Under the pieces are notes generated by a model, which did no database searches, had not been told where the DNA came from, and worked only from the letters and a program-made list of their open reading frames with translations. Source: a virus. From it: a DNA stretch of 41,381 nucleotides. Shown in pieces: positions 11,389-21,814 of this stretch. The translations under genes were made by a program, and so were the position numbers. Position 1 is the first letter of the stretch, and every line of letters starts with the position of its first letter. Location of the stretch: the UHGV virus genome UHGV-0383272. One strand, given 5' to 3'.

Positions 11389-12894
11389 ATGGATAAGGTA
11401 AATGAATTTGAGCACGGTATTGATTCAAATACGAAAGACGGCGTGAATATCAATTACGTTACTTTCCCGATTGAATCGAACCTACATTATCGCTTTTCGT
11501 CTGCGGAAGATTTGCTGGATGATTTAGACACATTGGCTGCAATGATTATGGATCATTATCAAAATCAAGTTCCGAGGCTTGAAGTGCTAGACGAATATAG
11601 CAAGGCTCGTAACACGAATATTCTACGTAATCAACGACGTAAAGAAAAAGAGAAAGCCGATCATCGTGCTGCGCATAACTTTGGCAAGATTATTTATACG
11701 TTTGATGTTGGTTACAATACAGGAAATCCAATCAAGGTTGAGATTGAAGACGAAACGAGTCAGCAAGCGATTGATGAGTTCAATACAAATAACGATATTG
11801 ATGGCTTAAATAGCGAACTATGGTTAGACGTTGACAAATATGGTCGAGCCTACGAAATCCACTATCGCGATGAAGATGACGTAGATTACGTAGATTTATC
11901 TAATGTTTTTGAAACATTTGTTGTTTACGATCTGACAATGAAACGCAGGCCTATCTTAGCAATTAGATATCCAAAGGCACAGTTTAATAAAAATGCTGAT
12001 AAGATGCGAATCATGCCCATTGTTTATACAGCGGATGAAACGATCTATTATCAAGAAACGAAACTAGATGCAATCAAGCTTGTTGAGGATCATCGCGAGT
12101 CGCATAGTCATAAGGAAGTTCCTGTCGTTGAATACTCAAGCAATCGCTTTAGGATGGGAATATATGAAGATGTTCTTTCTCAAATTGATTTATACGATTC
12201 GGCTCAGTCTGATACCGCTAATTACATGACGGACTTAAATGATGCTTTGTTAGTAATTAGCGGAGATATCGAAGCTGCAGGTCTATCAGCCGATGACGCT
12301 GCAAAAATGAAAGATGCAAACATGTTGCTGCTTGAATCAGGTGTCGATATTAACGGAAATAAAACCGCGGTGACTGCAGGATACATCTACAAGCAATACG
12401 ATGTTCAAGGCGTGGAATCGCACAAGGATCGTGTCAAAAGTGACATCTATGAAACTGCTATGGTTCCCAACTTAACCGATGAAAAGTTTTCTGGTGTGCA
12501 ATCAGGCGAAGCGATGAAGTATAAACTTTTCGGCTTTCAGCAAATGACCGCGACCAAACAACGGCTCTTTAAAAAATCGCTGACGCGGCGCTATCGGTTG
12601 TTGTTCAACTTAAAGCAAGAAGTAAGTGAACTAACAAATGCTGATCTGAAAGGTTTGAAAATCAGCTTTACACCGAACTTACCAAAGGCGATCCTCGAAG
12701 AGTTGAAAGCACTAGTTGATTCTGGTGTGCAGTTCAGTCAAGAAACGTTGCTTGGTCTGGCTTCTTTCGTTGAAAGTGTGCAGGACGAGATTAACAAAGT
12801 TAAAAAAGAAGAGCCGAAAAGAACGGTTCCAGACTACGACTTCACCGGAACTAATTATTTGCAGGAAACGAAAGATAAAGCTGGTGTTGAGTAA
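11389..12894 (+). CDS. portal protein
   Basis: 501 aa, acidic, positioned after terL. SPP1 gp6-like size and composition. Confidence 0.8.
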   Translation: MDKVNEFEHGIDSNTKDGVNINYVTFPIESNLHYRFSSAEDLLDDLDTLAAMIMDHYQNQVPRLEVLDEYSKARNTNILRNQRRKEKEKADHRAAHNFGKIIYTFDVGYNTGNPIKVEIEDETSQQAIDEFNTNNDIDGLNSELWLDVDKYGRAYEIHYRDEDDVDYVDLSNVFETFVVYDLTMKRRPILAIRYPKAQFNKNADKMRIMPIVYTADETIYYQETKLDAIKLVEDHRESHSHKEVPVVEYSSNRFRMGIYEDVLSQIDLYDSAQSDTANYMTDLNDALLVISGDIEAAGLSADDAAKMKDANMLLLESGVDINGNKTAVTAGYIYKQYDVQGVESHKDRVKSDIYETAMVPNLTDEKFSGVQSGEAMKYKLFGFQQMTATKQRLFKKSLTRRYRLLFNLKQEVSELTNADLKGLKISFTPNLPKAILEELKALVDSGVQFSQETLLGLASFVESVQDEINKVKKEEPKRTVPDYDFTGTNYLQETKDKAGVE

Positions 12895-13820
12895 TGAACT
12901 CAAAAGATTACTGGCGTCAACGTGAGGAGCAACACATTGCACAAATGATCAAAGACGAAAAGCAAATGAAGAAAGCTATCGCTGATCGATTTCAAATAGC
13001 AATTGATAATATCAACAAAGAAATTGATGCGAACTGGCAACGTTTTGCGAACAAAGAAGGCGTATCTCTTTCTGAAGCTAAAAAAGTTTCAATGGAACAT
13101 GACGTTAAAGCTTTTGCTAGAAAAGCAAAGCAATATGTTAAAGACAAGGACTTCTCTAAGACTGCTAACGAAGAGTTGCGGCTCTATAATGTCACAATGC
13201 GAGTCAATCGATTGGAGCTTCTTAAATCGCAAATAGGACTTGAACTGATTGCCTTATCTGACGACTTAGATAAGTACACAGCAGATTTACTAACTAAAGA
13301 AGGTATTGCTGAAGCGAAAAGGCAAGCAGGAATATTAGGAGAAACCATTTTTGATGGCTACAGAGATGTTGTAGAAGCTGTCGTGAATGGTTCTTTTCAG
13401 TCTGCAACGTTTTCTGAACGCATATGGGGTAATATGCAAGCTTTCAAAGCAGAATTGGATAAATTACTTGTCCAAACGATTACGCAAGGGAAGAACCCAC
13501 GAGATATGGCTAGAAAGCTACGTAATTTATTCGAGTCTAGCAAGTATGAAGCGGAAAGGTTAATGAGAACTGAGTCTGCGCGAGTTCAAACAGCAATTCA
13601 AAAGCAAAGTTATGATAAATACGAAATAGACGAATATGAATACATTGCTGAACCAACAGCATGTAGCGTTTGCCTACCGTTAAATGGGAAGATATTCAAA
13701 TCAAAAGACATGTTGTCAGGGACTAACGCCAGTCCAATGCACGCAAATTGTAGATGCAGCACAGCACCTTATGTCGATCGCGAAGCACTTGGTAGTTCGC
13801 TAAAAGAAAGAGGTTTATAG
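12894..13820 (+). CDS. minor head protein (SPP1 gp7 / Mu F-like)
   Basis: C-terminal motifs ...CSVCLPLNGKIF...HANCRCS are typical of the gp7/F family. Confidence 0.7.
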   Translation: MNSKDYWRQREEQHIAQMIKDEKQMKKAIADRFQIAIDNINKEIDANWQRFANKEGVSLSEAKKVSMEHDVKAFARKAKQYVKDKDFSKTANEELRLYNVTMRVNRLELLKSQIGLELIALSDDLDKYTADLLTKEGIAEAKRQAGILGETIFDGYRDVVEAVVNGSFQSATFSERIWGNMQAFKAELDKLLVQTITQGKNPRDMARKLRNLFESSKYEAERLMRTESARVQTAIQKQSYDKYEIDEYEYIAEPTACSVCLPLNGKIFKSKDMLSGTNASPMHANCRCSTAPYVDREALGSSLKERGL

Positions 13821-15056: not shown

Positions 15057-15680
15057 ATGAAAAAACGTTTATTAATGCCATTAAACTTACAATTTTTTGC
15101 TGAAGGTGGAGAAGGAGGAAATGGTGAGGGGACTGATGGAGGGACGTCGACTAACTCTCAAGATGGTCAACAGGCACAAAACTCGCAACAATCCGCGAAC
15201 GGCGAAGGAGAACAAAACACTGGCAAAACATTTTCTCGTGATGATGTAGCAAAAATGATTGCTGCTGAAACGAATAAGGCTAAGGCCGTGTGGGAAAAAG
15301 AACTCGAAGCAAAAAAAGAAGAAGCTAAGAAACTAGCCAAAATGAATGCAGAAGAAAAACTGCAACATGAACTAGAACAAAAAGAAGCTGAAATTGCAGA
15401 GTTAAAGCGCGGACAAACGTTAAACGAAATGAAATCAGAAGCTTCAAAAATGCTCTCTACAGCTAGTTTGCCACATGATGATGAATTACTCAGTTTAATC
15501 GTTTCCGATGACGCAGAAGCCACTAAAAAGGCAGTGTCGGTCATTACTAACTTTGCATCACTGATCAAGAAAGAGAATGCTCGACAGACTACACCAGGTG
15601 AAGGCGGTCAATTTACAGCTGACAAAGAAACAAAACAAACCGTGGCTAATTTAGCTGCTAAAAATCGAATTATCAAATAG
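15057..15680 (+). CDS. scaffolding protein
   Basis: N-terminal LQFFAEGG plus a low-complexity Gly/Glu segment, then a long coiled-coil. Sits directly upstream of the capsid gene. Confidence 0.6.
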   Translation: MKKRLLMPLNLQFFAEGGEGGNGEGTDGGTSTNSQDGQQAQNSQQSANGEGEQNTGKTFSRDDVAKMIAAETNKAKAVWEKELEAKKEEAKKLAKMNAEEKLQHELEQKEAEIAELKRGQTLNEMKSEASKMLSTASLPHDDELLSLIVSDDAEATKKAVSVITNFASLIKKENARQTTPGEGGQFTADKETKQTVANLAAKNRIIK

Positions 15681-15694
15681 GAGGAATAAACAAT

Positions 15695-16579
15695 ATGGCA
15701 CAAACATGGAATCCCGACAACGTAACCGTCTATGAAACAAAAGAGGGTAAAATCCCCGACAAGTACAACACGCTAATTTTGAATGAGGTAATGGAAAACT
15801 CTAAAATCATGCAATTAGCGAAATACGAAGAAATGACTGACAAGGAAAAGAAATTTGAATACTTTGCTGAAGGTCCTGGCGCATACTGGGTTGGTGAAGG
15901 TGAAAAGATCAAGACGTCTAAACCAAAATGGTTAAATGCAACAATGGTCGCTAAGAAATTGGGTGTAATCATTCCTGTTTCACGTGAGTATTTAACATAC
16001 AAAATGTCAGATTTCTTTACTGCAATGCAGCCAAAAATTGCTGAAGCATTTTATAAAAAGTTTGACGCAGCGGCATTGTTAAACACTGACAATCCATTCC
16101 CACAATCGTTAGATGAATCAGTAGTCGCAGCTTCTAATGTCATCAACGGTCCATTGAGCTACGACAATATTTTAGCATTAGAAGATTTGCTAGGAGAAAA
16201 CGAGTTTGAACCAAATGCGTTTATCTCAAATCGGAAAAACCGTACAGAACTGCGTGCTGCCGCTCAAACGGTTGGTTCAAATGTAGAATTCATCTATGAT
16301 CGTGCAGCGAATACGATTGATGGTTTCCCTGTCGCTGACTTAAAAGCATTAGAAAAAGGCAATCTTTACGCTGGAGACTTCGATTATATGTTCTACGGTA
16401 TTCCGTTTAATATCTCGTTCAAAATCTCGGAAGAAGCACAACTGTCAACATTAACGAATGAAGATGGAACGCCAGTCAATTTGTTCGAACAAGAATTATT
16501 GGCTTTGCGTTGCACGATGGATGTAGGTTTCATGATCGTTAAAGACGAAGCTTTCGCGAAAATCAGCCCAAAAGCGTAG
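15695..16579 (+). CDS. major capsid protein
   Basis: 294 aa, strong SD taggagg, positioned after the scaffold. Confidence 0.75.
   Translation: MAQTWNPDNVTVYETKEGKIPDKYNTLILNEVMENSKIMQLAKYEEMTDKEKKFEYFAEGPGAYWVGEGEKIKTSKPKWLNATMVAKKLGVIIPVSREYLTYKMSDFFTAMQPKIAEAFYKKFDAAALLNTDNPFPQSLDESVVAASNVINGPLSYDNILALEDLLGENEFEPNAFISNRKNRTELRAAAQTVGSNVEFIYDRAANTIDGFPVADLKALEKGNLYAGDFDYMFYGIPFNISFKISEEAQLSTLTNEDGTPVNLFEQELLALRCTMDVGFMIVKDEAFAKISPKA
16567..16573 (+). other. candidate -1 ribosomal slippery heptamer C_CCA_AAA, 2 codons before the capsid stop
   Basis: X_XXY_YYZ pattern in the capsid zero frame. The -1 frame opens only at 16543 and stays open to 16860. Confidence 0.45.
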
Positions 16580-16860
16580 CGCCTGCTACCGGAATCGTTC
16601 CAAGCCAAAAAACTTGGACCGGTAAGGTAGGCGATACTAAGACGTTTACGATCACTACAGATCCAGCTGATGCTTCTGATTCTGCAACAGTGATTGCAGC
16701 AACCACAGCTGCATCTAGCGATGAGTCAATCGTTACTGTTGCCAAGACTGGCGATGGAGTATTTGAAGCCACGATCGCTACAGCTGGAACAGCTACAATT
16801 AACTTTACGTCAGGAACGTTTACGACGTCAATTGCAGTTACAGCTCAAGCAGCTGGATAG
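16573..16860 (+). CDS. Ig-like (Big_2-type) domain extension of the major capsid protein, reached by -1 frameshift
   Basis: -1 frame translation SVAPATGIVPSQKTWTGKVGDTKTFTITTDPADASDSATVIAATTAASSDESIVTVAKTGDGVFEATIATAGTATINFTSGTFTTSIAVTAQAAG. No independent start codon or SD. Confidence 0.55.
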   Translation, partial: SVAPATGIVPSQKTWTGKVGDTKTFTITTDPADASDSATVIAATTAASSDESIVTVAKTGDGVFEATIATAGTATINFTSGTFTTSIAVTAQAAG

Positions 16861-16871
16861 GCGGGGATCTT

Positions 16872-17204
16872 ATGGCTGAAACAATCGCAGAAGATGTTAA
16901 AAAGCTACTCTCTGGCACAATCGATGAAAAGCTTGAGATCATCGAACGGCGGACAAAAGAGCGTCTAGGGTCGTTGCTGAGCGTGTCCGAAATTCCTGCA
17001 GAGTTTGAGTATATATCGTACGAAGTGACTCTCAAAAGGTTCAATCGGATCGGACAGGAAGGTATGCAATCTTATTCGCAGGAAGGACTTTCGATGGTCT
17101 TTCCTGATTCTGATTTTTCAGAGTACCGCCGAGAGATTGATGAGTTCAAAGATCAGGAGAAAGGTCTGCTTGGCCCGAGAAAGGGCAAGGTGAGATTCTT
17201 ATGA
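16872..17204 (+). CDS. head-tail connector (gp6-like)
   Basis: 110 aa, position and size. Confidence 0.5.
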   Translation: MAETIAEDVKKLLSGTIDEKLEIIERRTKERLGSLLSVSEIPAEFEYISYEVTLKRFNRIGQEGMQSYSQEGLSMVFPDSDFSEYRREIDEFKDQEKGLLGPRKGKVRFL

Positions 17205-18249: not shown

Positions 18250-18759
18250 ATGGGAGCAATTCAAGGTAAAGACAAGCTTTTATTAGTTCGTCGTTTAGAC
18301 GAAGCTGATTCTGCAGCTGCGACAAAGCCGCTTTATCAGATTGAACATAAATGGGAATACTCGCGCGATAGCAAGTCGCAGCAGACAAAAGATGGAGCTG
18401 TGCCGACATCGGGCGGGTTAGAAGTGTCGCTATCATTGAAGGGATTAGCGTCACGAGATGACGAAAATGAATACATGCTGAGCGCTGTTGAGGATGGCGC
18501 TACAGTAGAGTTTTGGGATGTTGATTTAAAAGGAGTCCAAAAGGAAGGGAAATACCCCGCTCGATACGCTCGCGGTAAAGTCGGCAAATGGAGTGTTCCT
18601 TCGAACGTTGAAGATTTGGACGAAATCGAGACGGAGGCAACAATCGAAGGGAAGCCGGTTAAAGGCTATGCGACTGTTTCAGATAAAGTCATTGAAGAAG
18701 CGCAATATGCATTTAGAGACACTACTGCAGGTAGTGAAGAAGAATCGGGACAAGGTTAG
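18250..18759 (+). CDS. major tail protein
   Basis: 169 aa, strong SD ttaggagg, followed by a strong terminator. Confidence 0.65.
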   Translation: MGAIQGKDKLLLVRRLDEADSAAATKPLYQIEHKWEYSRDSKSQQTKDGAVPTSGGLEVSLSLKGLASRDDENEYMLSAVEDGATVEFWDVDLKGVQKEGKYPARYARGKVGKWSVPSNVEDLDEIETEATIEGKPVKGYATVSDKVIEEAQYAFRDTTAGSEEESGQG

Positions 18760-18795: not shown

Positions 18796-19149
18796 ATGAA
18801 TCTTGATATTAACGGAAAAGTTATCGAAGTGAAGTTTACCATTGGAGCGATTGAAGCGTTAGATCGTGTTTATGAAGTTCAAAATGGCGGAGCTAAATTC
18901 GGCATGGGAGTTAGTTCTTCGTTAGTTTATTTGCAACAGTATAACCCTGTTGTTCTTCGAAATATTATTGAAGCTTTACAAGTAGACAAGGCAAAAGTTG
19001 GTCGTTCAGAAATTGAAGCATGGCTGATGTCGCAGGATATCGAAAAGCTTTCGGAGGAAATGATTGATGAATTGGGAAAGCAGGACTTAACCAAAGCAAT
19101 GATCAAAAAGTTGAAAAAACAAGCGGCGAAGGTAGCAAAACAAAAATAA
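18796..19149 (+). CDS. tail assembly chaperone (gpG-like)
   Basis: 117 aa, immediately upstream of the tape measure, with an overlapping -1 ORF. Confidence 0.55.
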   Translation: MNLDINGKVIEVKFTIGAIEALDRVYEVQNGGAKFGMGVSSSLVYLQQYNPVVLRNIIEALQVDKAKVGRSEIEAWLMSQDIEKLSEEMIDELGKQDLTKAMIKKLKKQAAKVAKQK

Positions 19150-19178
19150 CTAAAACAAGCCGTCAATTTTATGAAGAC

Positions 19179-19529
19179 TTGGCGATTAATGCTTTTCGTT
19201 TTCTGGGTTGTAAATCGTTTAAAGAGATCAATCAGATGACCTTGCGAGAATTTGAATTGCGAATGATTGCTTTCAAGCTTTCTCAAGTTGACGAGGATAT
19301 GAAGCGTCATGAGCAAGCCTTTTTAAATAACTCTGTAAGGGCTAGAGATAGAAAAGGCAACGCGATTTATAAGGAGTTCATCGATTTTTATGATTACGAA
19401 GAACGAATTAATGAGGCATTAGAGGGTACTGATTTTCATAAAAGCAAATTGGACGAAAAACGAATCAATGAGTTGAAACAGATTGCTAGGAACCTTCGTG
19501 AGTATAGAGAAGGGAGGGGGACGATATAG
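19179..19529 (+). CDS. tail assembly chaperone T part (frame open from 19071; likely made as a G-T fusion by -1 frameshift)
   Basis: The -1 frame relative to G is open from 19071 and lacks a good SD or start. An A6 run sits at 19114-19119 inside the overlap. Confidence 0.5.
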   Translation: MAINAFRFLGCKSFKEINQMTLREFELRMIAFKLSQVDEDMKRHEQAFLNNSVRARDRKGNAIYKEFIDFYDYEERINEALEGTDFHKSKLDEKRINELKQIARNLREYREGRGTI

Positions 19530-19642: not shown

Positions 19643-21814
19643 ATGATGGCTGTTGGATCAACGATGCAAAGTGCCGGGAAGTCAATGACAAAACTTCTTA
19701 CAGTGCCAATACTTGGTGCTGGTGTCGCCGCTGCTAAAATTGGCGGAGACTTTGAAGAGCAAATGAGTCGTGTAAAAGCGATCTCTGGGGCAACTGGCGA
19801 TTCTTTTGAACAACTGAAGCAACAAGCGATCGATTTAGGTGCTAAAACGGCCTTTAGCGCGAAAGAATCCGCAGCAGGTATGGAAAACCTAGCCTCTGCA
19901 GGTTTTGATGCAAACGAGATCATGGCTGCAATGCCTGGTCTTTTAGACTTAGCAGCTGTTTCTGGTGGCGATGTGGCTTTGGCATCTGAGAATGCAGCAA
20001 CAGCGTTGCGAGGATTTGGACTTGAGGCAAGTCAAGCAGGTCATGTTGCGGACGTGTTTGCACGTGCGGCAGCTGACACGAATGCTGAGGTTGCAGATAT
20101 GGGAGAAGCGATGAAATATATCGCTCCAGTAGCAAATGCGATGGGAATTTCGCTTGAAGAGGCATCCGCAGCGATTGGTATCATGTCTGATGCTGGTATT
20201 AAAGGATCACAAGCAGGGACATCACTTCGCGGAGCTTTATCTCGTTTAGCAAAACCGACCGATCCAATGATCGCAAAAATGGATGAGTTAGGTTTGAGTT
20301 TCTATGATGCTGAAGGCAACATGAAATCACTGGAGCATCAAATTGGTATGTTGCAACACGCTTTCCAAGGATTAACACCGGAACAACAGCAAAACGCATT
20401 AGTGACTCTTTACGGGCAAGAATCGCTATCAGGAATGATGGCATTAATTGAAAAGGGACCAAATGCAATAAATGAATTAACTAACTCATTAAAGAATTCA
20501 AATGGTGCTGCTGATGAAATGGCTCGGACAATGCAAGACAACATGAACTCATCTATTGAACAAATGATGGGAGCTTTTGAGTCTGCTGCAATAGTAATTC
20601 AAGAAATCATGGCACCAGCAATTCGAGGTGTTGCGGATACAATTGGCGGATTAGTTGAAAAGTTCGTTAATGCACCGGAGCCTATTCAAAAAATGGCACT
20701 GGCGATCGCTGCTTTAGTAGCTGCGATTGGCCCTCTGCTTTTTGTCGGAGGATCAATGCTTGTATGGTTCGCAAAACTTAAAGTTGCGGTCGGATTCCTT
20801 TCTACTTCATTCCCAGCTTTAGGTGGGGTATTTACAGCTCTAACTGGACCGGTTGGAATAGTAATCGCGATCATTGCTGCATTAGTTGGAGCGTTTATTT
20901 TCGCTTGGAACACCAGCGAAGGTTTTCGGAATGCTGTCACAACGATTTGGGAATCTATAAAAAATACAATTTCATTTGCTGTTCAAACCGTATCAAACAC
21001 GATCCAACGAATTTTTGGCGGTGTCGTTGCTTGGTGGAAAGCTAATAACGAGGAAATCGCTGCTGCAGTAAATACGATTTGGAATGGAAAAATCGGTCAA
21101 TTTATTCGAAATGCTATGGGTGTGATTCAAGGCATCGTTGTTGGAGTATGGACTGCGATTAAAGGAATAACCGAAGGGATTTGGATAGCAATTTCAGCAG
21201 TGATTGAAGGTGCTTTACGAGTAATCCAAGGTTTGATCAAGTTTATTCTCGGTATACTTTCAGGGGATTGGTCGATGGCTTGGGAAGGAATGGTGGAAGC
21301 CGCGTCTGGAATTTTATATGGACTCGGCGGAATTGTTGTTGGAGCTTTAGAAGCGGTGATCGGTGTTGTTAGAGGATTTTTCTCCACCTTCAAAAATGCC
21401 GGTTGGAATCTGGTAAAAATGATTGCAGATGGAATTTGGTCAGCAATTAGTTTGCCGGCTAAGGCTATCAATGCGGTTGTTTCAAAAGTTCGTAAATATT
21501 TACCATTCTCTCCAGCCAAAGAAGGACCACTTAGCGATTTAGATAAGTTGAATTTTGGCGGAACAATCTCAACAGGGATTTACTCTGGACAGGATGAGAT
21601 TAATCGCGCGATGGCATCAGTTTTAGACATTCCTGCGCTTGCCAATTTAAACGCAAGTCTAGGGGTGAAGCACACTGTCACAAGAAACGAAAACCAGTCA
21701 ACGAAACAACCAGCTGTAATTAAACTTCGTTTAGGCAAGCAAGAGTTTAGTGCGTTTGTTCAGGATATTTCAGACGAACAAGGAGATGTAGCAGATCTCA
21801 ACTTACTATTTTAG
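19643..21814 (+). CDS. tape measure protein
   Basis: 723 aa, Ala/Gly-rich with internal hydrophobic segments. The reading frame is open upstream to 19508 (see findings). Confidence 0.8.
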   Translation: MMAVGSTMQSAGKSMTKLLTVPILGAGVAAAKIGGDFEEQMSRVKAISGATGDSFEQLKQQAIDLGAKTAFSAKESAAGMENLASAGFDANEIMAAMPGLLDLAAVSGGDVALASENAATALRGFGLEASQAGHVADVFARAAADTNAEVADMGEAMKYIAPVANAMGISLEEASAAIGIMSDAGIKGSQAGTSLRGALSRLAKPTDPMIAKMDELGLSFYDAEGNMKSLEHQIGMLQHAFQGLTPEQQQNALVTLYGQESLSGMMALIEKGPNAINELTNSLKNSNGAADEMARTMQDNMNSSIEQMMGAFESAAIVIQEIMAPAIRGVADTIGGLVEKFVNAPEPIQKMALAIAALVAAIGPLLFVGGSMLVWFAKLKVAVGFLSTSFPALGGVFTALTGPVGIVIAIIAALVGAFIFAWNTSEGFRNAVTTIWESIKNTISFAVQTVSNTIQRIFGGVVAWWKANNEEIAAAVNTIWNGKIGQFIRNAMGVIQGIVVGVWTAIKGITEGIWIAISAVIEGALRVIQGLIKFILGILSGDWSMAWEGMVEAASGILYGLGGIVVGALEAVIGVVRGFFSTFKNAGWNLVKMIADGIWSAISLPAKAINAVVSKVRKYLPFSPAKEGPLSDLDKLNFGGTISTGIYSGQDEINRAMASVLDIPALANLNASLGVKHTVTRNENQSTKQPAVIKLRLGKQEFSAFVQDISDEQGDVADLNLLF

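What the first reader, a model, noticed from the sequence alone, without database searches (positions are those of the whole stretch)
16543..16860. Programmed -1 frameshift at C_CCA_AAA fuses an Ig-like (Big_2) domain to the major capsid protein
The capsid ORF ends at 16579. Two codons earlier lies the heptamer C CCA AAA (16567-16573), a canonical X_XXY_YYZ slippery site in the capsid zero frame.

The -1 frame is closed upstream by TAA at 16540-16542 and then runs open for 106 codons to TAG at 16858-16860. It encodes ...TWTGKVGDTKTFTITTDPADASDSATVIAATTAASSDESIVTVAKTGDGVFEATIATAGTATINFTSGTFTTSIAVTAQAAG, a typical bacterial Ig-like (Big_2) domain sequence. This segment has no start codon or SD of its own.

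This matches the known pattern of frameshift-added Ig-like decoration domains on phage capsids and tails (Fraser and colleagues). In this phage the fraction of capsid subunits carrying the domain would be set by the shift efficiency.
Basis: partly seen in the sequence, partly recalled or inferred. Interest (0 to 1): 0.6.

Follow-up and report, generated by a model that had tools for sequence, protein, structure and literature searches.

The report
Frameshift adds Ig domain to capsid
In this Enterococcus-type temperate phage, a fraction of ribosomes very probably slips back one base just before the capsid gene's stop codon and adds a 95-residue immunoglobulin-like domain; the same device was shown by experiment in Lactobacillus phage A2, so this is a well-supported but ordinary new example.

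Summary
The capsid ORF is 15695-16579. C_CCA_AAA lies in the 0 frame at 16567-16573, one codon before TAG. The -1 frame is then open to TAG at 16858-16860 and has no start codon before 16690.

- The extension passes Pfam Big_2 marginally. It folds at pLDDT 95 into an Ig-like domain that matches Big_2, lambda gpV and N4 decoration domains.
- A -29.4 kcal/mol hairpin starts 6 nt after the heptamer.
- Substitutions against relatives fall mostly on third codon positions of the -1 frame.
- In 61 of 61 IMG/VR loci found through the extension protein alone, a canonical heptamer (47 C_CCA_AAA, 14 A_AAA_AAA) lies exactly 3 nt before the 0-frame stop.
- The site (C CCA AAA GCG TAR CGCCTG) is identical to that of phage A2's major head gene, where the frameshift was shown experimentally. 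The extension is 46% identical to A2's (E 1e-19), yet the capsid bodies show no BLASTP similarity.
- Other relatives carry an Ig-like domain in frame, or none.

Verdict: a new member of a known kind. Public annotations call the extension a separate hypothetical ORF. In passing, the slip site, stop, stem and linker look like a portable cassette shared by unrelated capsid and tail genes.

The parts
15695..16579 (+). Major capsid protein gene, 0 frame (294 aa, 33.1 kDa). It is an HK97-fold protein of the staphylococcal phage 80alpha type.
   Evidence: ORF listed. Pfam PF05065 at E 8.5e-31. phrog_10 major head protein at 2.8e-56. PDB 6b0x, the 80alpha major capsid protein, at E 2.2e-97. AGGAGG lies 9 nt upstream of the ATG.
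16567..16573 (+). Slippery heptamer C_CCA_AAA in X_XXY_YYZ register in the capsid frame.
   Evidence: Read directly. It is the only in-register heptamer in the overlap. The same heptamer occurs in B1578/D2SVT and in the phage A2 head and tail genes. In 14 of 61 homologous loci it is replaced by A_AAA_AAA at the same position. It is absent (CAA CCA AAA) from IME197/EFC-1, which lack the extension.
16574..16579 (+). Six-base spacer: one sense codon (GCG) plus the 0-frame stop TAG.
   Evidence: The distance from heptamer to stop is exactly 3 nt in 61 of 61 loci found through the extension protein.
16580..16633 (+). Predicted 3' stimulatory stem-loop. CGCCUGCUACCGG pairs with CCGGU-AA-GGUAGGCG, with an inner hairpin CCAAG/CUUGG at 16599-16618. 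The 3' arm is formed by the Val-Gly codons of the conserved KVGD motif.
   Evidence: MFE -29.4 kcal/mol, z -3.7 against shuffles. The same fold is predicted in B1578, -26.4 kcal/mol, z -4.3. A stem starts at the same CGCC in most cassette variants. Covariation is modest. It is not terminator-like.
16573..16860 (+). The -1 frame extension: 95 codons (SVAPATGIVPSQKTW...AQAAG) plus TAG. It is read only after the shift.
   Evidence: Translation. No start codon before 16690. Third-position bias of substitutions: 56 of 88 against B1578. 46% identical to the A2 gp5B extension, E 1e-19.
16603..16824 (+). Big_2 Ig-like domain (residues 11-84 of the extension).
   Evidence: Pfam PF02368 at E 5.9e-5, 23.4 bits against cut-off 22.8. 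AF2 pLDDT 95.2, eight strands. Foldseek matches: 7quz Big_2, 7t4f lambda gpV (TMq 0.80), 9e99 N4 decoration protein.
16872..17204 (+). Next gene, the head-tail adaptor. It bounds the extension on the 3' side.
   Evidence: phrog_132 at 3.9e-30.
15057..15680 (+). Head scaffolding protein gene immediately upstream (context).
   Evidence: phrog_172 at 1.4e-46.

Best explanation
The site is a programmed -1 ribosomal frameshift at the end of the major capsid gene.

Most ribosomes read ...CCA AAA GCG and stop at TAG, which gives the 294-aa capsid protein. A minority behaves differently. These ribosomes are paused with the Pro and Lys tRNAs on CCA AAA by the stem-loop that begins 6 nt downstream. They slip one base back to CCC AAA and continue in the -1 frame (AGC GTA GCG CCT ...). 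They bypass the stop and add a short linker (SVAPATGIVPSQ) and a Big_2 Ig-like domain. The product is a 388-aa, 42-kDa capsid-Ig fusion that co-assembles into the shell. The domain is probably displayed on the outside, at a density set by the shift efficiency.

**Shown here by computation:**
- the anatomy of the site;
- the fold of the extension;
- purifying selection on the -1 frame;
- conservation of a canonical heptamer 3 nt before the stop in all homologous loci;
- homology to the phage A2 site.

**Inferred:**
- that the shift occurs in this phage;
- its efficiency;
- incorporation of the fusion into virions;
- the role of the domain. Weak adhesion to surface carbohydrates or capsid stabilisation are the usual proposals for phage Ig-like domains, from my own knowledge of Fraser et al. 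2006.
For: 1. **Anatomy.** Heptamer, stop and open -1 frame are as described, and the -1 frame has no start of its own.
2. **The extension is a real domain.** Pfam Big_2, phrog_215, AF2 pLDDT 95.2 and Ig-like structural matches that include phage decoration and tail Ig domains.
3. **Selection on the -1 frame.** Against B1578, 56 of 88 nucleotide differences fall on third codon positions of that frame.
4. **Hairpin.** It starts 6 nt after the heptamer, -29.4 kcal/mol, z -3.7, and is conserved in B1578.
5. **Search independent of the slip site.** All 61 IMG/VR loci found through the extension protein have a canonical heptamer exactly 3 nt before the 0-frame stop: 47 C_CCA_AAA and 14 A_AAA_AAA. 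One slippery site has been exchanged for another slippery site. None has an in-frame upstream ORF.
6. **Presence and absence go together.** IME197 and EFC-1 have an 80%-identical capsid, CAA CCA AAA instead of the heptamer, and no extension.
7. **In-frame fusions.** Many ~398-aa homologues (60-63% identical) carry an Ig-like domain (PF18316) in frame at the same junction.
8. **Homology to the experimental case.** Phage A2 head gene ORF5 ends ACC CCA AAA GCG TAA CGCCTG, and its -1 extension is 46% identical to the window's (E 1e-19). [quoted passage not shown] PMC6950654 names CCCAAAA as the slippery sequence of this phage group's major head gene.
Against: - There is no protein or ribosome-profiling data for this phage.
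- Pfam Big_2 passes its cut-off by only 0.6 bit.
- Covariation support for the stem is modest: score 0.21 against 0.167 in shuffles, with 34 of 500 shuffles as high. One subfamily (L059 type) has a mismatch at the informative pair.
- In A2 itself the equivalent region does not fold better than shuffles, z +0.7. A strong stem is therefore not universal in this cassette.
- X_XXA_AAA is not the most efficient bacterial heptamer known (own knowledge), so the shift efficiency could be low.
Confidence: 0.9

Rival explanations
1. The extension is a separate small gene (a decoration protein) translated from its own start codon. This is how public records annotate the homologues.
For: B1578 and D2SVT annotate a separate 87-aa CDS that starts at a GTG 18 nt after the capsid stop. 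Enterococcus genomes list 86-88-aa 'hypothetical' or 'Ig-like domain-containing' proteins.
Against: - In the window that GTG is GTT. The first possible start is GTG 16690, which would remove strands A-C of the domain.
- No Shine-Dalgarno sequence precedes either position.
- The frame is closed only 2-23 codons upstream in all 61 loci, and a slippery heptamer is always present.
- The conserved PKSV[AT]P stretch lies upstream of every annotated start.
Confidence: 0.03
2. The arrangement is a dead remnant. An ancestral in-frame capsid-Ig fusion suffered a 1-nt indel (or the assembly has an error), and the extension is no longer made.
For: In-frame capsid-Ig fusions exist among relatives.
Against: - The in-frame domains are a different family (PF18316) and are only loosely similar.
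- The out-of-frame arrangement is identical in independent assemblies: L058, L066 and L069 at 99-100%, and dozens of B1578-type contigs.
- The -1 frame shows third-position substitution bias and stays intact over about 30% nucleotide divergence.
- The heptamer is kept, or swapped for another slippery heptamer.
Confidence: 0.03
3. The fusion arises from transcriptional slippage by RNA polymerase on the A run rather than from ribosomal slippage.
For: Some relatives have a run of seven A at the site, where polymerase slippage is conceivable.
Against: - The window has only four A. From my own knowledge, that is too short for appreciable polymerase slippage.
- The register of the heptamer relative to the 0 frame is conserved in 61 of 61 loci, and a structure sits at the ribosomal spacing. 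Both are features of ribosomal frameshifting.
- A2 was described as ribosomal (title cited).
Confidence: 0.03

Closest known systems
Lactobacillus (Lacticaseibacillus) phage A2 major head protein gp5A/gp5B, produced by a -1 frameshift (Garcia, Rodriguez and Suarez 2004, cited in PMC5009743). The same site is noted in its relatives BH1, Lrm1, J-1 and PL-1 (PMC6950654).
   Same: - The slip site and following bases are identical: C CCA AAA GCG TAR CGCCTG.
- The stop lies 3 nt after the heptamer.
- The -1 product begins PKSV[AT]P.
- The Big_2 extension is homologous (46% identity, E 1e-19).
   Different: - The capsid bodies show no BLASTP similarity (E 5.4). A2's is a 400-aa precursor with an annotated mature peptide. 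The window's is a 294-aa 80alpha-type protein with a separate scaffold gene.
- The window's predicted stem is much stronger (-29.4 against -17.9 kcal/mol) and starts 3 nt earlier.
- The title of the A2 paper calls gp5B essential. In this capsid lineage IME197 and EFC-1 do without any extension.
Phage A2 major tail protein -1 frameshift (Rodriguez et al. 2005, cited in PMC5009743).
   Same: The same C CCA AAA GCG TAG site with a Big_2 extension that starts PKSV.
   Different: It sits on a tail tube gene, and the extension is only 29% identical. The window's own major tail gene (18250-18759) has no such site.
T3/T7 gene 10A/10B and the capsid frameshifts of Listeria phages A118/A500 (-1) and PSA (+1), as reviewed in PMC5009743.
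   Same: A minor, C-terminally extended capsid species is made by recoding at the end of the major capsid gene. The extension is Ig-like in T3.
   Different: According to the review, the direction differs in PSA and the T7 extension is not Ig-like. Their slip sites were not compared here, and no sequence relationship was tested.
Capsid proteins with an in-frame C-terminal Ig-like domain, such as the ~398-aa PF18316+PF05065 prophage capsids of Lachnospiraceae. From my own knowledge, phi29 gp8 also has a BIG2 domain.
   Same: The capsid family is the same (60-74% identity), and an Ig-like domain is attached at the same C-terminal junction.
   Different: Every subunit carries the domain and no recoding is involved. 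The domain family differs (SbsC-like).

Membership tests
A2-type -1 programmed ribosomal frameshift at the 3' end of a phage major capsid gene | A canonical X_XXY_YYZ heptamer in the 0 frame, shortly before the capsid stop codon | tested here: met
   C_CCA_AAA lies at 16567-16573, 3 nt before TAG. It is identical to the A2 site.
A2-type -1 programmed ribosomal frameshift at the 3' end of a phage major capsid gene | A -1 frame that is open past the stop, encodes a folded domain, and has no start codon or ribosome-binding site of its own | tested here: met
   The first start codon in that frame is at 16690, inside the domain.
A2-type -1 programmed ribosomal frameshift at the 3' end of a phage major capsid gene | A stimulatory RNA structure 5-9 nt downstream of the heptamer | tested here: met
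   A predicted stem-loop spans 16580-16633 with a 6-nt spacer, -29.4 kcal/mol, z -3.7. It is conserved. Covariation is only modest. Function was not tested.
A2-type -1 programmed ribosomal frameshift at the 3' end of a phage major capsid gene | An extension homologous to A2 gp5B's C-terminal extension | tested here: met
   46% identity over 95 aa, E 1e-19.
A2-type -1 programmed ribosomal frameshift at the 3' end of a phage major capsid gene | Two capsid products (short and long) present in infected cells and virions | not testable with these tools
   This needs SDS-PAGE and mass spectrometry of virions.
Big_2 bacterial Ig-like domain (PF02368) | A profile score at or above Pfam's gathering threshold | tested here: met
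   23.4 bits against 22.8, E 5.9e-5, which is marginal. Cassette homologues score up to E 1e-19.
Big_2 bacterial Ig-like domain (PF02368) | An Ig-like beta-sandwich fold | tested here: met
   AF2 pLDDT 95.2. Foldseek matches: 7quz Big_2 (E 2.4e-5), lambda gpV Ig domain (TMq 0.80) and LigA Big domains.
HK97-fold major capsid protein (PF05065) | A profile match, a solved homologue, and position in a head-morphogenesis module | tested here: met
   PF05065 at 8.5e-31. 80alpha capsid 6b0x at E 2.2e-97. Flanked by the scaffold and head-tail adaptor genes.
Separately encoded capsid decoration protein | Its own start codon and ribosome-binding site upstream of the complete domain | tested here: not met
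   There is no ATG/GTG/TTG between 16543 and 16690, and no SD-like sequence. The GTG used in the B1578 annotation is GTT in the window.

The most novel reading that the evidence does not exclude
The slip site, one sense codon, the stop, the 5' arm of the stem and the PKSV[AT]P linker (CCCAAAAGCGTAR CGCC) may form a portable recoding cassette. It would move by recombination between unrelated structural genes and carry interchangeable payload domains.

**Genes that carry it.** It ends at least 20 BLAST-unrelated proteins. These are capsids of 280-640 aa, including two long (570-640 aa) upstream ORFs whose identity was not tested, and tail tube proteins of about 200 aa.

**Payloads seen in the -1 frame:**
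- Big_2 domains;
- a double domain of 216 aa;
- an SbsC-like domain;
- an unknown 143-aa domain;
- a 57-aa HeH/LEM-like domain;
- Ser/Ala-rich linkers.

On this reading the window's capsid acquired a ready-made sub-stoichiometric display module, rather than evolving a frameshift site in place.
Probability: 0.55. Interest if true: 0.55.

Novelty: new member of a known kind. Interest (0 to 1): 0.33.

Why it matters
**For this phage.** The result corrects the gene model. The 290-bp stretch after the capsid gene is neither a gap nor a hypothetical ORF. It is the C-terminal part of a second, minor capsid species. Public records of relatives misannotate it as a separate protein (B1578, D2SVT and several Enterococcus genomes).

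**Biologically.** The phage would be able to display an adhesin-like Ig domain on a fraction of capsid subunits, set by the frameshift efficiency. This bears on phage adherence to cell surfaces or mucus and on capsid engineering and display.

**More generally.** The data suggest that the A2-type recoding signal is far more widespread than the handful of Lacticaseibacillus phages in which it is cited. It appears to travel together with its payload.

Tried and rejected
- **Megablast against phages.** The capsid-plus-extension DNA and the first 25 kb of the window gave no close relative. Only protein-level searches found B1578/D2SVT.
- **Other long alternate-frame ORFs.** Among 46 genome loci with related capsids, several (L016, L021, L028, L043, L020, L032, L047) have long -1 or +1 ORFs after the capsid gene. 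All proved to be ordinary downstream genes with their own ATG, not frameshift extensions.
- **A2 hairpins.** Folding the A2 head and tail sites gave no significant structure, z +0.7 and -0.3. A strong stem cannot be claimed for the whole cassette.
- **Formal covariation.** The count on the long-range stem is only weakly above shuffles.
- **Rfam.** No family matches 16400-16900.
- **Hairpin as terminator.** Rejected: no T tract follows it and no terminator-like site was found.
- **Primary papers.** The A2 papers PMC355979 and PMC1291274 are not held. The experimental claims rest on citing reviews and papers.
- **Literature on the cassette.** Searches for CCCAAAA found only the BH1 paper as relevant.
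- **Coordinate errors.** Two comparisons used wrong A2 coordinates and were redone.

Full report
**1. The observation**

The window is a nearly complete ~41-kb temperate siphovirus genome. Its morphogenesis module runs portal 11389-12894, minor head protein 12894-13820, scaffold 15057-15680, capsid 15695-16579, head-tail adaptor 16872-17204, connector proteins, major tail 18250-18759 and tail chaperones.

The capsid ORF (294 aa) matches Pfam Phage_capsid at E 8.5e-31. It also matches the solved staphylococcal phage 80alpha capsid protein, 6b0x, at E 2.2e-97.

The capsid ORF ends ...ATC AGC CCA AAA GCG TAG. C_CCA_AAA therefore lies at 16567-16573 in exact X_XXY_YYZ register, one codon before the stop. 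The -1 frame is closed at 16540-16542 and then open to TAG at 16858-16860. Its first ATG/GTG/TTG is at 16690. A shift yields a 388-aa, 42.2-kDa protein against 33.1 kDa.

Chance does not account for this. A 95-codon open run occurs in 7e-4 of windows in shuffled sequence. An in-register heptamer within the 11-codon overlap is expected 0.05 times.

**2. What the extension is**

- Alone, it passes Pfam Big_2 marginally: 23.4 bits against a cut-off of 22.8, E 5.9e-5.
- It hits phrog_215, 'structural protein with Ig domain', at 6e-11.
- With a 12-sequence alignment, AlphaFold2 gives an all-beta model with mean pLDDT 95.2.
- The best PDB matches are Big_2 domains (7quz), S-layer SbsC Ig domains, a phage SU10 tail protein, the N4 capsid decoration protein and the C-terminal Ig domain of lambda tail tube protein gpV (TMq 0.80).
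- Against the closest phage relative, 56 of 88 nucleotide differences fall on third codon positions of the -1 frame. That frame is therefore under purifying selection as coding sequence.

**3. The recoding signals**

A stem-loop is predicted from 16580 to 16633, starting 6 nt after the heptamer. Its energy is -29.4 kcal/mol and its z-score is -3.7. Enterococcus phage B1578 gives the same fold, -26.4 kcal/mol and z -4.3.

The 5' arm is the CGCC... that directly follows the stop. The 3' arm is formed by the Val-Gly codons of the conserved KVGD motif of the domain.

Across cassette variants, the third base of the Pro codon in the 5' arm tends to pair with the third base of the Val codon: CCU/GUA, CCG/GUC and CCA/GUU. 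One subfamily breaks this rule. The formal covariation count is only modestly above shuffles, 0.21 against 0.167, with 34 of 500 shuffles as high. I therefore treat the stem as well predicted and conserved, but not proven by covariation.

It is not terminator-like, no promoter-like site lies on the + strand within the extension, and no Rfam family matches.

**4. Comparative evidence**

*Close relatives.* B1578 and the record named 'Acinetobacter phage D2SVT' share an 88%-identical capsid. They have the same heptamer, a stop at the same place and a 70%-identical extension. The extension is annotated there as a separate ORF from a GTG that is GTT in the window.

*Relatives without the extension.* IME197 and EFC-1 have an 80%-identical capsid, read CAA CCA AAA (no heptamer), and have no extension at all.

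*In-frame fusions.* More distant capsid homologues (60-74% identical, mostly Lachnospiraceae prophages) carry a different Ig-like domain (PF18316) in frame at the same C-terminal junction.

*A search that did not use the slip site.* Searching IMG/VR with patterns from the extension protein returned 61 loci. All 61 have a canonical heptamer exactly 3 nt before the 0-frame stop: 47 C_CCA_AAA and 14 A_AAA_AAA. None has a long in-frame upstream ORF. The carrier proteins fall into at least four BLAST-unrelated groups. The exchange of one slippery heptamer for another at a fixed position is hard to explain other than by selection for slippage.

**5. Relation to what is known**

Lactobacillus phage A2's major head gene ends ACC CCA AAA GCG TAA CGCCTG. 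Its major tail gene ends GCC CCA AAA GCG TAG. The window's extension is 46% identical to the A2 head extension (E 1e-19). The two capsid bodies show no BLASTP similarity (E 5.4).

[quoted passage not shown] It says the same kind of recoding acts on a coat protein gene in Listeria phages A118, A500 and PSA. It cites Garcia et al. 2004 and Rodriguez et al. 2005. PMC6950654 names CCCAAAA as the slippery sequence of the major head gene in BH1, Lrm1, J-1, PL-1 and A2. The primary A2 papers are not held.

The finding is therefore a new member, in an Enterococcus-type phage with an 80alpha-type capsid, of an experimentally established kind.

**6. Mechanism, and what remains inferred**

*Best explanation (confidence 0.9).* Tandem slippage of the Pro and Lys tRNAs from CCA AAA to CCC AAA, promoted by the downstream stem. 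This gives a minor capsid-linker-Big_2 fusion that co-assembles with the major form.

*Not shown:* the efficiency, incorporation into virions, and function. The title of the A2 paper calls the long form essential. Here the existence of IME197 and EFC-1 without any extension suggests that it is accessory in this capsid lineage (inference).

*Rivals, about 0.03 each:* an independent small gene, a dead remnant or assembly error, and transcriptional slippage. The reasons against each are given in the rival section.

**7. Beyond the finding**

Almost all hits lie at the end of a 200-640-aa structural ORF that ends ...PKA*. The -1 frame then continues PKSV[AT]P into different payloads. These are Big_2 domains, a 216-aa double module, an SbsC-like domain, an unknown 143-aa domain, a 57-aa HeH/LEM-like domain and Ser/Ala-rich linkers.

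The carrier proteins form about 20 BLAST-unrelated clusters, including tail tube proteins. Short-payload variants have a compact hairpin at the same place with compensatory changes: CGCCAUC/GAUGGCG, CGCCACC/GGUGGCG and CGCCGUC/GACGGCG.

This suggests a portable recoding cassette. I found no description of it in the searchable library, but key older papers are not held. I rate it as a plausible and modestly novel generalisation, not as established.

**8. Verdict**

Novelty: a new member of a known kind. Interest is moderate to low for the finding itself (0.33). It has practical value for annotation, and the cassette gives a side lead of somewhat higher interest.

Noticed in passing
IMG/VR loci L052-L170 (e.g. 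L080 6403, L055, L065, L130). Phage records LF1, phiPYB5, phiAQ113 and KC5a.: The same CCCAAAAGCGTAR-CGCC frameshift site delivers a 52-65-aa HeH/LEM-like domain (...KPTDAQTVDEIKAWLDAHSIDYTGKTLKADLLALVP) to capsid proteins. Pfam HeH scores E 1.8e-4, below its cut-off. In several Lactobacillus phages the same domain lies within the annotated major head protein CDS. What a DNA-binding-type motif does on a capsid is unexplained.
   Followed up: partly
L176, L177, L189, L196-L206: In 14 of 61 loci with a homologous Ig extension, the slip site is A_AAA_AAA (GTA AAA AAA GCG TAA CGCC) instead of C_CCA_AAA. The position and the following bases are the same. The seven-A run could also allow transcriptional slippage there.
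   Followed up: partly
All 61 loci; window 16574-16579: The distance from the heptamer to the 0-frame stop is exactly one codon (nearly always GCG) in every locus. Whether the adjacent stop or the GCG contributes to frameshifting is unknown.
   Followed up: no
L046 2439-2501 (Pediococcus acidilactici DSM 20284 prophage): A capsid 38% identical to the window's ends TCC CCA AAA GCG TAA. Its -1 frame gives only a 20-aa tail (PKSVNPVVGEGEADSAVLAE). This may be a cassette that has lost its payload.
   Followed up: no
L163 3401 and 6124; L129 5846 and 8240; L157 6969 and 9403; A2 (L051) 5568 and 7927: Several phages carry the cassette twice, once on the capsid gene and once on the major tail gene. 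In L163 both copies carry nearly the same 216-aa payload (Big_2 plus a further ~120-aa domain).
   Followed up: partly
window 18796-19529: The tail assembly chaperone pair is present. G is 18796-19149 (phrog_183). The T part is in the -1 frame at 19179-19529 (phrog_441), with no credible start of its own (TTG). The A-rich run ATC AAA AAG TTG AAA AAA at 19102-19119 is the likely site of the usual G/GT -1 frameshift.
   Followed up: partly
L002 (PQ554527.1, 'Acinetobacter phage D2SVT'): In this 4-kb head module the record has the same feature coordinates as Enterococcus phage vB_ElaS_B1578 and is nearly identical to it in the aligned junction. The whole family is otherwise from Enterococcus and other Firmicutes. 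The Acinetobacter host label looks doubtful.
   Followed up: no
window 19698-20695: Part of the tape measure gene (19643-21814) is 77% identical at the DNA level to the tape measure gene of Lactococcus phage TP901-1, whereas the rest of the first 25 kb of the window has almost no DNA-level match to known phages. This is a mosaic segment.
   Followed up: no
P0121-P0130; L001/L002 2400-2663: Homologues of the extension are annotated in Enterococcus avium, E. malodoratus, E. devriesei, E. hulanensis, E. hirae, Vagococcus and two phage records as free-standing 86-88-aa 'hypothetical' or 'Ig-like domain-containing' proteins. This is a systematic misannotation of frameshift extensions.
   Followed up: partly
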